NCBI RefSeq assembly: GCF_000372725.1
Contig: NW_005201287.1
Coordinates: 388,986-452,985, forward strand
Reading direction: 5' to 3'
DNA length: 64,000 nucleotides
Origin: Emiliania huxleyi CCMP1516
Lineage: Eukaryota
The notes below the pieces were generated by a model. The model was not told the DNA's origin and made no database searches. It worked only from the letters and a program-made list of their open reading frames with translations. A program made the translations under genes and the position numbers. This document shows positions 48,333 through 56,153 of the stretch, piece by piece (within the stretch, counting starts at the first letter, position 1; each line of letters opens with the position of its first letter).

Positions 48333-49619
48333 ATGCTTCTGCCCCGGAGCCCGGCCGCTGACGGTCCGTCGGCGGTGGTAAGCGCCTCGGATCGCCGGCG
48401 TGCCATCGCTATCGTCGCCGCCCTCGTCGTCGTCAACGTCTCAGCCGTTATGCTGCTCACCGTCGCCGTCGGGCGCTACCCCTCCCTCTCCGCTGGCGCC
48501 ACCCTCGCCTACACTTTTGGCCTCCGCCACGCCGTCGACGCTGACCACATTGCCGCCATCGACAACGTCACTCGCAAGCTCTCCTCCGCTCCGGCGCCCG
48601 GCACGGCTGGTGCGGCGGCCCGCCGGCCGGCGCCGCTGCTCGTCGGGCTCTTCTTCTCGCTGGGCCACTCGACGGTGGTGGGGCTCATGTGCCTCGGCGT
48701 GGCGCTCGGCTCGACCTACCTCTCCGACAACGTCACCTCCCTCAAAGAGTCGCTCGCGCCGATCGGTACCCTCGTCTCTGTGAGCGTGCTGCTTCTCGTC
48801 TCGGGCCTCAACATCGCCACCGCGCGGCGCCTGTACCACGACTACCACGAGAGGCGGGCCACGGGCGAGCACAGGCACTACAGCGCCTTCGGCGCAACCT
48901 TCTTCACCCACACGCACGCCGTCGAGGTTGACGAGTTCGCCGAGGTGAAGCCGAGTGGAGCGACGTCCGGCCTCCTCGCGCGGTGCTGCCCAGGCATCTT
49001 CCGCGGCATCACGGCGGAGTGGCACATGTACCCTGTCGGCCTGCTCTTCGGCCTCGGCTTCGACACCGCCTCGGAGATCGCCCTGCTCGGCCTCACCGCG
49101 ATGTCGTCAGACTCGGGCGTGCCTCCGCTGCTCACCCTGCTGCTGCCGCTGCTCTTCGCGTGCGCGATGTCGCTCGTCGACACTCTCGACGGAATGATGA
49201 TGCTTTTCATGTACCGGTGGGCGGGCGGCGACCCGGCGCGCCGCCTCTTCTTCAACCTCTTCCTCACCGCCCTCTCCGCCGCCATCGCGCTCGTGGTGGC
49301 CGCAGTCGAGCTGCTCGGCCAGGTGCAGGACAAGCTTCACCTCGCCGGACCCTTCTGGGACGGCGTCAAGAGCGTCAACGACCACTTCGAGTATGTTGGC
49401 TACTCAATCATTGCGCTGTTTGTCCTCTCGTGCGGCGGCGCGGCGGCCTACATGCGCCTCAGCCTGGGGGGCGGCGAGTGCGGCGGCGGGGGAGAGGAGG
49501 CGGAGGCGGAGGAGATGGCGGCGGCGCAGGAGAAGGCGAGGCAGGAGGGCGACTACCTGCGGCGGAGAATGCTCGCACTGGCGACGGGCGCGGCGAAGGC
49601 GAGGGAGATCGACGTTTGA
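48333..49619 (+). CDS. NiCoT-family high-affinity nickel/cobalt permease (HoxN/NixA/Nic1-like)
   Basis: FGLRHAVDADHIAAIDNVTRKL (RHAxDADH signature), GLFFSLGHSTVV, His-rich loop, YPVGLLFGLGFDTASEIALL, multiple TM helices. Confidence 0.97.
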   Translation: MLLPRSPAADGPSAVVSASDRRRAIAIVAALVVVNVSAVMLLTVAVGRYPSLSAGATLAYTFGLRHAVDADHIAAIDNVTRKLSSAPAPGTAGAAARRPAPLLVGLFFSLGHSTVVGLMCLGVALGSTYLSDNVTSLKESLAPIGTLVSVSVLLLVSGLNIATARRLYHDYHERRATGEHRHYSAFGATFFTHTHAVEVDEFAEVKPSGATSGLLARCCPGIFRGITAEWHMYPVGLLFGLGFDTASEIALLGLTAMSSDSGVPPLLTLLLPLLFACAMSLVDTLDGMMMLFMYRWAGGDPARRLFFNLFLTALSAAIALVVAAVELLGQVQDKLHLAGPFWDGVKSVNDHFEYVGYSIIALFVLSCGGAAAYMRLSLGGGECGGGGEEAEAEEMAAAQEKARQEGDYLRRRMLALATGAAKAREIDV

Positions 49620-49913
49620 CTAACGTATGGCTAACACATTTCTGGCGCGTTGTGGGCATGTGCCCGGCACACGTCCAGCTAAGTAAGGGCCGGCACGGCG
49701 GCAGCGGGCCCAGGCGGAAAGTACCTTCTCAACCGTGGAGACGCACAATAACGGTGCGTAGAGCCGTAGAGACACCATTTCGCGCGCTAACCAATGGTAA
49801 AATATATCATCCCGGTGCCGCGGTCGATATACTTTAGAGTGAGCCGTTGGTATAGAGCCGTGTACGCGCGGGACCACGATTGAGATGGCTAGTGCCATTT
49901 CACTCTGGCACAG

Positions 49914-53728: not shown

Positions 53729-56153
53729 TCAGGCGGCAGGCAGGTACATCTTGGACATGTCGCCGATCGCATGCTCGAGGTTGTCGGCGGTGGCCGGGTC
53801 GGACGACTGCTTCGCCTGCGCTCGGAGGAGGGGCAGGGGTGTGGGTGGTGGTGGTGGTGTGTGTGTGTGTGTGTGTGTGTGTGTGGTGGGGGGGGGGGGG
53901 GGGTCCCTCGAGCCGCAAACTGCGGGGCGGGAGGAGGAGGAGGAGGAGGAGGAGGAGAGAGGAGGAGGCAGAAGAGAGGGGGAGAGGGGAGTGGCAGTGC
54001 GAGGAGGAGGAGGAGAGTCGGCGCTGCGGCCGCCTTCATCGCGGCTGTCATGACGACGTGGTGCGCCTACAGGTTCGGAGAAGGTTCGGAGAAGGTTCGG
54101 AGAAGGTGCGAGTCCTCTCGGTTGTGCCTCGGCAACTTCTCGGCTCTACATCTCGGCTCTACATCTCGGCTGCATCTCGGCTGCATCTCGGCTGCATCTC
54201 GGCTGCATCTCGGCTGCATCTCGGCTGCATCTCGGCTGCATCTCGGCTGCATCTCGGCTGCATCTCGGCTACATCTCGGCTGCATCTCGGCTGCATCTCG
54301 GGGCGGTGTCTCGCCTTGAGTGCGTCCATGTAGTCGGTCTCGCTCGTGAATGGCGAGCCGGGCGCACCTTTGCGAGAGGGGTGGCGAGGGTGGGGGGCGA
54401 GGGTGGGGGGCGAGGGTGGGGGGCGAGGGTGGGGCGAGGGGGGGCGAGGGCGGTGAGGTTGGGGGGCGAGGGCGGGGGTGAGGGCGAGGGTGAGGGGGGG
54501 GGTGAGGGTGAGAGGGTGAGGGTGGGGGTGGGGGCGAGGGTGAGGGTGGGGGTGGGGGTGAGAGGGAGGGCGAGGGTGAGCGGTGAGCGGTGAGGAGGAC
54601 GAGGCGCCGCCAGAGTGGCAGAGGCGCGTGCTCACTCGCCATCACCAGCTATACCCGTCGCCAACGGCTAGAGCCGCCGCTAAATGCCAGCTACCCGTCG
54701 CCAACGGCTAGACGGCGTGGGCTAGCGGCCCCCCCCCCTCCCGTTCGCACCGACGGGCTTGACACGCTGGCAGAGGCAGTACTCGGCCATCAGAGTGATG
54801 ATCTTGGCGCAGTGCTCCTGTCGACTCGGACAGGCTGGTCCTCGGCACTGTGCCCCACCACAGGTACAGGTGCTTCTCTCCCCACACCTCTCCCCACCTC
54901 TCCCCACCTCTCCCCACCTCTCCCCACCCCTCAGCGCTGGGCCCTCCTCGGTGCTTGCGGAGTGCAGCCACTCTCTGGTCCGGGCGGCGGTGCTCTAGGC
55001 GCAGTGTGCTCCTCGTGAGAGAGGGGGGGGGGGGGGGGGGAGGCTGTGGCAACCTGCTCTTCTTCTCAACTCCTCTCCTCAACTCCTCCTCTCAACTCCT
55101 CCTCTCGAGGCGGTGGCTCACACCGGGTGCAGGTGCCGGTGCAAGCCTCCTCCTCGGTGCCGCCCAATCACTACCCACTCGGCATCCTCTCTCTGCCTCC
55201 AGCGCTCCTCCTTGGTGTTGACCCATATCTCCCCACATCTCCCCATATCTCAGCAGCGCTCCTCCTTGGTGTTGACCCAGCGCGTGGCCTGGTTGAAGGT
55301 CTGGGCAGACATCGGCTGGGCGAAGAGCTCCGTCACCTAGGTACATGTGTTAAATCTACCTGAGGGCCGTGTCCATGCACACTCCGAGAGCCTTGCTCCA
55401 CACGGCGGCTCTTCCGCGAGACATCGCCGAGATTGACTGGCCAGTGTGCAGTGCAGGTGCGGCCGGGACAGGAAGCCTCTCAGGAAGTGTCTCGGAAGTG
55501 TCTCGGGCGAGGTGTCACCTGAATCTGCGCCTTTTTGATGGTGGCACAGGCCTCCTTGAGCTCGGCGACGAGCTTCGGGTCGTCAAAGATGCCGCACGGG
55601 ACCTGCGTGTCGTGGATGGAGGCCGTCAAAGGGAGGGCAGTAGTGCACCGCTGTCTCAAGTAGCCGCGGCGTATAGAGAGCGTGTGACGCAACTCGCGGC
55701 ACGCTGCGCTGCCTGGCGCTGGCCGCGCCGCAAGTGTCGCGGCGCGAGTGGAGCGAGGAGAGGGCTGCGAACGCCGGTGAGGAGCGAAGATCTAGCCGCG
55801 GTCTCTCTATGGCGGCGTTCTCTCGCTCGCCTGGCAGTGGCCGCCGCGCAGGCGGAGGACGAGGTGGAGGGTGGACTCCTTCTGGATGTTGTAGTCGGAG
55901 AGGGTGCGGCCGTCCTCGAGCTGCTTGCCCGCGAAGATCAGCCGCTGCTGGTCGGGCGGGATGCCCTCCTTGTCCTGGATCTTGGCCTTGACGTTGTCAA
56001 TCGAGTCGGACGGCTCGACCTCGAGCGTGATGGTCTTGCCGGTGAGGGTCTTGACGAAGATCTGTCGCGCGCGGGACGGAGCGCGGCGGTTGGGCAATTT
56101 CGACGGGGCGACGGGTCGGCGCGGGGCGGCGCGGGCCGGCTCTTCGCCTGCAT
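53729..56153 (-). CDS. sodN: ubiquitin-nickel superoxide dismutase fusion (8 exons, 211 aa)
   Basis: Exons 56153-56148, 56061-55831, 55602-55519, 55336-55262, 54817-54751, 54367-54315, 54066-54034, 53815-53729 give full ubiquitin ...LRLRGG followed directly by [12 protein letters not shown] (Ni-hook)...[18 protein letters not shown]...[10 protein letters not shown]...[17 protein letters not shown]. One junction needs a GA donor. Confidence 0.93.

What the first reader, a model, noticed from the sequence alone, without database searches (positions are those of the whole stretch)
48333..56153. Candidate eukaryotic nickel module: NiCoT permease convergent with a ubiquitin-NiSOD fusion
Seen: a NiCoT permease (48333-49619, +) and a spliced Ub-NiSOD gene (53729-56153, -) face each other tail-to-tail. 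Nearly all of the 4.1 kb between them is one TSD-flanked transposon (49887-53506); removing it leaves about 0.49 kb between the stop codons. Established: in bacteria sodN needs the SodX peptidase to free His1 of the Ni-hook and is often linked to Ni uptake genes. Inference: this is an operon-like eukaryotic cluster in which the transporter supplies Ni and host deubiquitinases replace SodX, giving an iron-sparing ROS defence. Ub-NiSOD fusions themselves are known in algae; the physical linkage with the permease is the part I have not seen described.
Basis: partly seen in the sequence, partly recalled or inferred. Interest (0 to 1): 0.9.

Follow-up and report, generated by a model that had tools for sequence, protein, structure and literature searches.

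The report
Nickel permease beside algal nickel SOD
In a marine alga, an intact gene for a predicted nickel importer sits tail to tail with an intact gene for a ubiquitin-capped nickel antioxidant enzyme that it likely supplies; the pairing is real, but it is shown in one species only and is not an operon.

Summary
An intronless NiCoT permease gene (48333-49619, +, 428 aa) and an eight-exon ubiquitin-NiSOD gene (56153-53729, -, 211 aa) converge. A 3.62-kb nested element with 21-bp terminal repeats, a GAT duplication and a 100-base assembly gap lies between them. A metagenome contig carries the empty site, so the link is not a scaffolding artefact and the element is polymorphic. Database labels point to Emiliania huxleyi.

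The fusion and its proposed cleavage by deubiquitinases are already in print. Ten searches found no paper on the linkage. The scan has notes on other eukaryotic NiSOD genes but none on this pairing.

'Operon-like' overstates it. The genes converge, no other nickel gene was found in the window, and their affinities differ: the SOD's closest named relative is a haptophyte, while the permease groups with Triparma, a stramenopile. Synteny in other algae was not shown. One algal fusion contig lacks a downstream permease, and eight permease contigs were too short downstream to tell.

Best reading: a lineage-limited two-gene nickel cluster (0.55). Chance adjacency 0.3. The permease likely feeds urease too.

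The parts
48333..49619 (+). Intronless NiCoT (HoxN/NixA/Nic1-type) permease gene, 428 aa
   Evidence: Open frame and four motifs HAVDADH, FSLGHS, LGFDT, SLVDTLDG; Pfam NicO 232 bits; TIGR00802 278.7 bits, under its cut-off of 333; full-length transcript-derived protein in the same cluster; RNA contigs on three pieces
49884..49886 (.). Left copy of the 3-bp target duplication (GAT)
   Evidence: single GAT at the empty site in L007
49887..53506 (.). Non-autonomous, nested, multi-copy DNA transposon with 21-bp terminal inverted repeats (49887-49907, 53486-53506); polymorphic
   Evidence: Repeats; inner inverted pairs 50632-50648/53464-53480 and 50854-50887/53277-53310 and a 181-bp direct repeat; depth far above the permease gene over most of its length; no Pfam domain in 14 of 14 frames; absent in L007
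51986..52085 (.). Assembly gap of 100 N inside the element
53507..53509 (.). Right copy of the target duplication (GAT)
53581..53728 (-). 3' untranslated region of the fusion gene (at least this far)
   Evidence: One RNA contig of run X11 covers 53581-53761; contigs give no strand or end, so this is a weak inference
53729..53815 (-). Ub-NiSOD exon 8 with stop codon
54034..54066 (-). Ub-NiSOD exon 7
54315..54367 (-). Ub-NiSOD exon 6
   Evidence: a loose end of RNA contigs at 54756 reads as the exon 5-6 joint of a relative
54751..54817 (-). Ub-NiSOD exon 5
54818..55261 (-). Intron 4, with a non-canonical GA donor and AG acceptor
   Evidence: the joint is needed for the gapless match to P0122
55262..55336 (-). 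Ub-NiSOD exon 4
55519..55602 (-). Ub-NiSOD exon 3, with the second half of the nickel hook (Val-Pro-Cys6-Gly-Ile-Phe)
55831..56061 (-). Ub-NiSOD exon 2: ubiquitin residues 3-76, then His1-Cys2-Gln3 of the hook (55839-55831); intron 2 splits the hook
56148..56153 (-). Ub-NiSOD exon 1 (Met-Gln), followed by a GC donor

Best explanation
Two separately transcribed, intact genes, a predicted nickel permease and a ubiquitin-NiSOD fusion, stand next to each other in this alga and are likely kept together as a small nickel-supply cluster rather than an operon. Shown: both reading frames, the convergent layout, and a polymorphic transposon that arrived after the two genes were already neighbours. Inferred: (1) the eight-helix permease imports Ni2+; (2) general deubiquitinases cut after Gly76 and free His1, whose amine and side chain, with Cys2 and Cys6, bind nickel, so no SodX is needed; (3) the mature four-helix protein removes superoxide, likely in the cytosol, since ubiquitin stands where a leader would be; (4) the permease likely serves urease as well; (5) the two genes have separate histories and came together in this lineage or a close ancestor, where linkage would favour co-inheritance or shared chromatin control.
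For: Adjacency survives removal of the element: L007 (99.5% identical over the permease) joins the left flank through one GAT to 20 of 20 bases of the right flank and lacks the terminal repeat. In run X3 one contig runs from the permease's end into the element and another from the element's right end into the last SOD exon. Chance that one given gene borders one of 2-8 nickel genes among 25,000-38,000 genes is 1-6 in 10,000 (gene numbers are my assumptions). 103 of 113 hook-bearing homologues have LRGG directly before His1 and 113 of 113 have HCQVPCGIF. A model of homologue P0231 has NiSOD structures as its ten best Foldseek matches, though none reaches E 0.001. In bacteria, NiCoT metal preference often follows the neighbouring enzyme (PMC2667541, passage).
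Against: Only one species shows it. The one algal Ub-NiSOD contig with long downstream DNA (L021, 5.9 kb) has BolA, a dehydrogenase and an AAA ATPase there, no permease. 0 of 8 other algal-type permease contigs hold a NiSOD, but only 39-1249 bases downstream were held. The pair was picked after the fact from a very large scan. L007 diverges from the window 20 bases past the junction, so it does not itself reach the SOD gene. The tested eukaryotic NiCoTs serve urease (PMC3663189), and a dinoflagellate nickel transporter follows nitrogen limitation together with urease (PMC5678928). No expression or transport data were obtained.
Confidence: 0.55

Rival explanations
1. Chance neighbourhood. The permease, likely a urease-feeding transporter gained or moved late, landed beside an old Ub-NiSOD gene in a transposon-rich region, and the order means nothing.
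For: Convergent orientation; the region tolerates insertions (3.6-kb element; L007 also diverges upstream of 48294 and past 53526); the other genes of the window are unrelated (DIRP, helicase, kelch, ankyrin, aldo-keto reductase, kinase); no linkage in L021; post-hoc selection.
Against: Prior chance of 1-6 in 10,000 for this pair; under 0.5 kb between stop codons without the element; precedent for transporter-enzyme linkage in bacteria.
Confidence: 0.3
2. An old, conserved algal module, inherited or transferred as one unit.
For: The permease has a narrow set of close relatives (Triparma and unnamed marine contigs; support 99-100) whose neighbourhoods could not be read, so the same pairing there is not excluded.
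Against: The SOD's closest named relative is Prymnesium parvum (107 of 134 residues) and no Triparma name is among the best 120 of 1124 hits. No Prymnesium name is among the best 120 permease hits. The permease of another coccolithophore, Scyphosphaera, falls in a different clade (AU p 0.00025, simple model, group named after seeing the tree). Seven introns against none. Caveat: most hits are unnamed, and the SOD tree is poorly resolved.
Confidence: 0.12
3. Scaffolding artefact: two loci joined across the N gap through two copies of a repeat.
For: The gap lies inside a multi-copy element; no laid contig spans the whole stretch and no joint at the empty site is among the rows shown (143 joints not shown).
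Against: Matching terminal repeats and target duplication on both sides; the empty site in L007 joins both flanks, chance about 2e-5 against the whole window.
Confidence: 0.03

Closest known systems
Ubiquitin-NiSOD fusion genes of marine algae (Groussman et al. 2015, PMC4460010; Sibbald et al. 2019, PMC6332867; passages read)
   Same: Same architecture, same junction, same proposed cleavage by ubiquitin-specific proteases; E. huxleyi is named among the carriers.
   Different: The passages read do not mention a linked transporter; the word 'transporter' does not occur in either main text.
Cyanobacterial sodN-sodX-sodT cluster (PMC4284471, passage)
   Same: A nickel permease beside a nickel SOD, proposed to supply its metal.
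   Different: SodT is a six-helix UreH-family protein; here the permease is an eight-helix HoxN/Nic1 type. No SodX is present. The genes here converge and the SOD gene is spliced, so there is no shared transcript.
Fungal Nic1 nickel permease (Cryptococcus, PMC3663189, passages; Schizosaccharomyces Nic1p as cited there)
   Same: Same Pfam family; the nearest Atlas clusters of the stored homologue P0001 are NicO clusters rich in Ascomycota.
   Different: Nic1 is shown to feed urease. The algal protein belongs to a separate marine eukaryote clade with a C-terminal helix and is untested.
Functional gene clusters of algae (iron-induced clusters of Phaeodactylum, PMC3296057, passage; urea cluster of Ostreococcus, recalled, paper not held)
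   Same: Non-operon clustering of nutrient genes in algae.
   Different: No co-regulation is shown here, and the cluster has only two genes.

Membership tests
NiCoT / NicO permeases | Pfam PF03824 above its curated cut-off | tested here: met
   232 bits against 27.7
NiCoT / NicO permeases | Histidine motif of helix II and the three further conserved motifs (motif forms recalled) | tested here: met
   HAVDADH at 66, FSLGHS at 108, LGFDT at 241, SLVDTLDG at 280; conserved in alignment A1
NiCoT / NicO permeases | Eight membrane helices | tested here: inconclusive
   The model (mean pLDDT 66.6) has long helices at eight fitting places; a simple hydropathy scan found six; no solved relative by sequence or fold
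NiCoT / NicO permeases | Transport of Ni2+ and/or Co2+ | not testable with these tools
   Needs an uptake assay
Bacterial HoxN/HupN/NixA subfamily (TIGR00802) | Score above the curated cut-off | tested here: not met
   278.7 against 333.05; not filed under the bacterial subfamily; it sits in a eukaryotic clade
Algal ubiquitin-NiSOD fusions | Ubiquitin ending Gly-Gly directly before His1 | tested here: met
   76 residues ending LRGG, then HCQ; same junction in 103 of 113 homologues
Algal ubiquitin-NiSOD fusions | Nickel ligands His1, Cys2, Cys6 with Pro5 | tested here: met
   HCQVPCGIF, as in 113 of 113 hook-bearing hits
Algal ubiquitin-NiSOD fusions | Sod_Ni domain and four-helix NiSOD fold | tested here: met
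   Tested on homologues: P0122 (96% identical) scores 96.8 against 25; the model of P0231 has NiSOD chains as its ten best matches at E 0.06-0.17
Algal ubiquitin-NiSOD fusions | Cleavage by deubiquitinases and SOD activity | not testable with these tools
   Proposed, not shown, in PMC4460010
Bacterial SodN (TIGR02753) | Curated cut-off and Tyr9 of the hook (H-C-x-x-P-C-G-x-Y) | tested here: not met
   P0122 scores 24.8 against 90; position 9 is Phe; not filed as bacterial SodN
sodN-sodX-sodT operon | Co-oriented sodN, peptidase and UreH-type permease | tested here: not met
   Convergent genes, HoxN-type permease, no peptidase found among the window's frames scanned
Conserved eukaryotic gene cluster | Same adjacency in independent genomes | tested here: inconclusive
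   Absent in L021 over 5.9 kb downstream; eight permease contigs too short
Conserved eukaryotic gene cluster | Co-regulation | not testable with these tools
   Only contigs were laid; they give no expression level
DNA transposon with 3-bp target duplication (PIF/Harbinger-like ends; label recalled) | Terminal inverted repeats, target duplication and an empty site | tested here: met
DNA transposon with 3-bp target duplication (PIF/Harbinger-like ends; label recalled) | Transposase that fixes the superfamily | tested here: not met
   No Pfam match in 14 of 14 internal frames; the gap could hide sequence; superfamily left open

The most novel reading that the evidence does not exclude
A eukaryote rebuilt the logic of the bacterial sodN-sodX-sodT cluster from unrelated parts: ubiquitin replaces the leader and peptidase, and a permease exchanged between a haptophyte and a bolidophyte lineage was fixed beside the SOD gene as its co-regulated nickel supplier, with the pairing kept in further open-ocean algae.
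Probability: 0.2. Interest if true: 0.72.

Novelty: new variant of a known kind. Interest (0 to 1): 0.45.

Why it matters
No algal NiSOD had been functionally characterised as of the passages read (PMC4460010), and how eukaryotic phytoplankton deliver nickel to it is open. The linkage names a concrete candidate transporter in a bloom-forming coccolithophore and makes a direct test possible. Natural alleles with and without the transposon offer a ready comparison for effects of 3' spacing. If the pairing proves conserved and co-regulated, it would be a case of convergent cluster building in a eukaryote and would bear on nickel demand in the surface ocean. If not, the permease is still of note as a possible transfer between haptophytes and bolidophytes.

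Tried and rejected
No whole genome was held, so copy numbers, urease and other nickel transporters of this organism were not checked.

Reads were laid on 46500-55800 only, so exons 1 and 2 rest on the protein match alone. Only contigs were available. The rows shown hold no joint across the empty site, which proves nothing either way. Shares of about 0.5 in ten runs were not used as evidence.

Viral contigs: 6 NiCoT loci, none with a NiSOD; no algal-clade permease and no NiSOD. Genome contigs: 0 of 57 loci with an algal-like NiSOD hold a HoxN-class permease within the 6 kb or less held on each side. 68 of 144 picked neighbour frames, plus the L021 fusion, were scanned with Pfam; none matched a nickel transporter family at E 1e-5. 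These are mostly Planctomycetota and Verrucomicrobiota, not cyanobacteria.

No permease-SOD fusion: 0 of 316 NiCoT proteins hit a NiSOD profile, and 13 long ones carry no Sod_Ni domain.

Locus tags of Triparma NiSOD genes could not be found. A sequence search of solved structures with P0231 found no NiSOD. The fold search of the permease model found nothing. The careful permease tree did not finish; quick trees are cited. The bacterial promoter scan is not meaningful for a eukaryote. No complex prediction was run.

Papers not held: Cuvelier 2010, Palenik 2007, Derelle 2006. Dupont 2008 and Schmidt 2009 were seen only as references. Any of these could mention the linkage.
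Full report
Observation. The window holds an open frame from 48333 to 49619 (+) of 428 residues without introns. It scores 232 bits on Pfam NicO and carries the four motifs expected of NiCoT permeases (motif forms recalled). On the minus strand, eight exons from 56153 to 53729 give 211 residues: 76 of ubiquitin ending LRGG, then HCQVPCGIF and a 135-residue mature protein. 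Donors are GC four times, GT twice and GA once. The model matches the database protein P0122 at 203 of 211 positions without a gap, which supports every joint including the GA donor; P0122 lies on a 941-base contig, too short for the introns, so it is likely transcript-derived. The stop codons are 4109 bases apart. The permease's cluster is labelled Emiliania huxleyi and holds a complete transcript-derived protein; the public gene model in that cluster is only 264 residues.

The element. Bases 49887-53506 have 21-bp perfect terminal inverted repeats and GAT on both sides. Inside are two further inverted pairs, a 181-bp direct repeat and a gap of 100 N. None of 14 internal frames has a Pfam match, and depth is far above that of the permease gene over most of its length. 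It is a non-autonomous, nested, multi-copy element. Because the gap lies between the two genes, I tested the join. Metagenome contig L007 is 99.5% identical over the permease, follows the left flank with several small differences, passes through a single GAT and continues with 20 of 20 bases of the right flank, without the terminal repeat. It then diverges, so it does not reach the SOD gene. In run X3, one contig covers 49593-49974 and another 53482-53822, which ties each gene to its end of the element, the right one by only 25 bases. Together these make an artefact unlikely and show that the element is polymorphic and younger than the adjacency.

How it likely works. Ubiquitin ends exactly before His1 here and in 103 of 113 hook-bearing homologues. 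General deubiquitinases would release the free amino terminus that the nickel hook needs. This is inferred, and was proposed by Groussman et al. (PMC4460010, passages), who note that the eukaryotic protein had not been fully characterised. Position 9 is Phe, not the Tyr of the bacterial motif, in all 113. A model of homologue P0231 has NiSOD chains as its ten best matches, at E 0.06-0.17. The permease model is of moderate confidence and fits eight membrane helices; a hydropathy scan found six. It likely imports nickel. The tested fungal relative feeds urease (PMC3663189, passages), and a dinoflagellate nickel transporter rises with urease under nitrogen limitation (PMC5678928, passages), so the SOD need not be the only client. 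Nothing here tests an iron-sparing role.

Is it a cluster? The genes converge, so they share neither a transcript nor a divergent promoter. Among 49 further frames of the window, and four near neighbours scanned earlier, there is no other nickel gene. A simple estimate puts chance adjacency at 1-6 in 10,000 (assumed gene numbers), but the pair was chosen after the fact. Synteny could be tested only thinly. A scan of metagenome contigs with patterns specific to the algal permease clade gave 11 loci: L007, eight other algal-type loci and two that look bacterial. None holds a NiSOD, but only 39-1249 bases lie downstream in the eight, the side that matters; upstream, up to 9 kb was free of it. From the SOD side, two eukaryotic fusion genes turned up inside bacterial genome bins. 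L021 has 5.9 kb downstream with BolA, a dehydrogenase and an AAA ATPase and no permease; L074 has about 1 kb. So the pairing is not universal among algae, and its range is unknown.

Histories. The SOD's closest named relative is Prymnesium parvum (107 of 134 residues); no Triparma name is among the best 120 of 1124 hits. The SOD tree itself is poorly resolved. The permease groups with two Triparma species and a few unnamed marine fragments (support 99-100, quick trees), inside a eukaryotic clade apart from the bacterial and fungal rows. The permease of the coccolithophore Scyphosphaera falls elsewhere, and a clade of the two is rejected (p 0.00025; simple model, group named after seeing the tree). 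This fits a transfer between eukaryotes or old paralogy, and speaks against joint acquisition of the two genes. Most hits are unnamed, which limits this reading. The bacterial parallel uses another transporter class, SodT of the UreH family (PMC4284471, passage), and 0 of 57 genome-contig loci with an algal-like NiSOD hold a HoxN-class permease nearby.

Literature. The fusion is known from 116 eukaryotes including E. huxleyi (PMC6332867, passages; supplement search without hits). Ten searches returned no listing that describes the linkage. I also read passages of PMC2667541, PMC3296057, bioRxiv 2021.01.12.426412, PMC10328945 (five supplements searched, one scanned file unreadable), PMC2784329, PMC7170224 and PMC7883536; none mentions it in the passages seen. 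Three key papers were not held, so absence from print is not established. Earlier notes of this scan cover other eukaryotic NiSOD genes but not this pairing.

Verdict. The feature is real and its parts are known. The arrangement appears undescribed and is more likely meaningful than not (0.55 against 0.30 for chance), but it is a two-gene neighbourhood shown in one species, not an operon, and not shown to be conserved or co-regulated. Interest 0.45.

Noticed in passing
window 54818-55261 (-): Intron 4 of the fusion gene starts with GA, and four of seven donors are GC. The GA joint is supported by a gapless match to P0122. The intron also holds a short second copy of the exon's 3' end near 55208-55225.
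   Followed up: partly
window 48333-49619: The permease groups with Triparma (a stramenopile), apart from the permease of another coccolithophore: a candidate eukaryote-to-eukaryote transfer or old paralogy.
   Followed up: partly
L001-L003, L006: AT-rich contigs of the viral collection, two from giant-virus bins, carry a HoxN-type NiCoT gene; in L006 its neighbours include a deoxynucleoside kinase and an HNH nuclease, with no NiSOD near.
   Followed up: partly
L021:679-1275 and L074:3982-6900: Eukaryotic ubiquitin-NiSOD genes, one nearly intron-free and one intron-rich, lie in contigs filed under bacterial genome bins; likely contamination.
   Followed up: partly
window 49881-49886: Six extra bases left of the element relative to the empty allele in L007; possibly the footprint of an earlier excision.
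   Followed up: no
window 48333-49619: The public genome-based gene model in this protein's cluster is 264 aa, against 428 aa here and in transcript-derived entries.
   Followed up: no
window 47476-48211 (-): Two overlapping frames of a multi-copy unknown gene run away from the permease only about 120 bases upstream; no Pfam match. L007 differs upstream of 48294.
   Followed up: no
window 56699-59379 (-): Two long frames beyond the SOD gene without a Pfam match; they read like a broken transposase by eye (recalled resemblance, not tested further).
   Followed up: no
window 44702-47119 (+): A DIRP-domain (LIN-9/ALWAYS EARLY-like) gene lies upstream of the permease.
   Followed up: no
P0648: A database protein joins a NiCoT domain to a TonB-dependent receptor; real fusion or gene-calling error not checked.
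   Followed up: no
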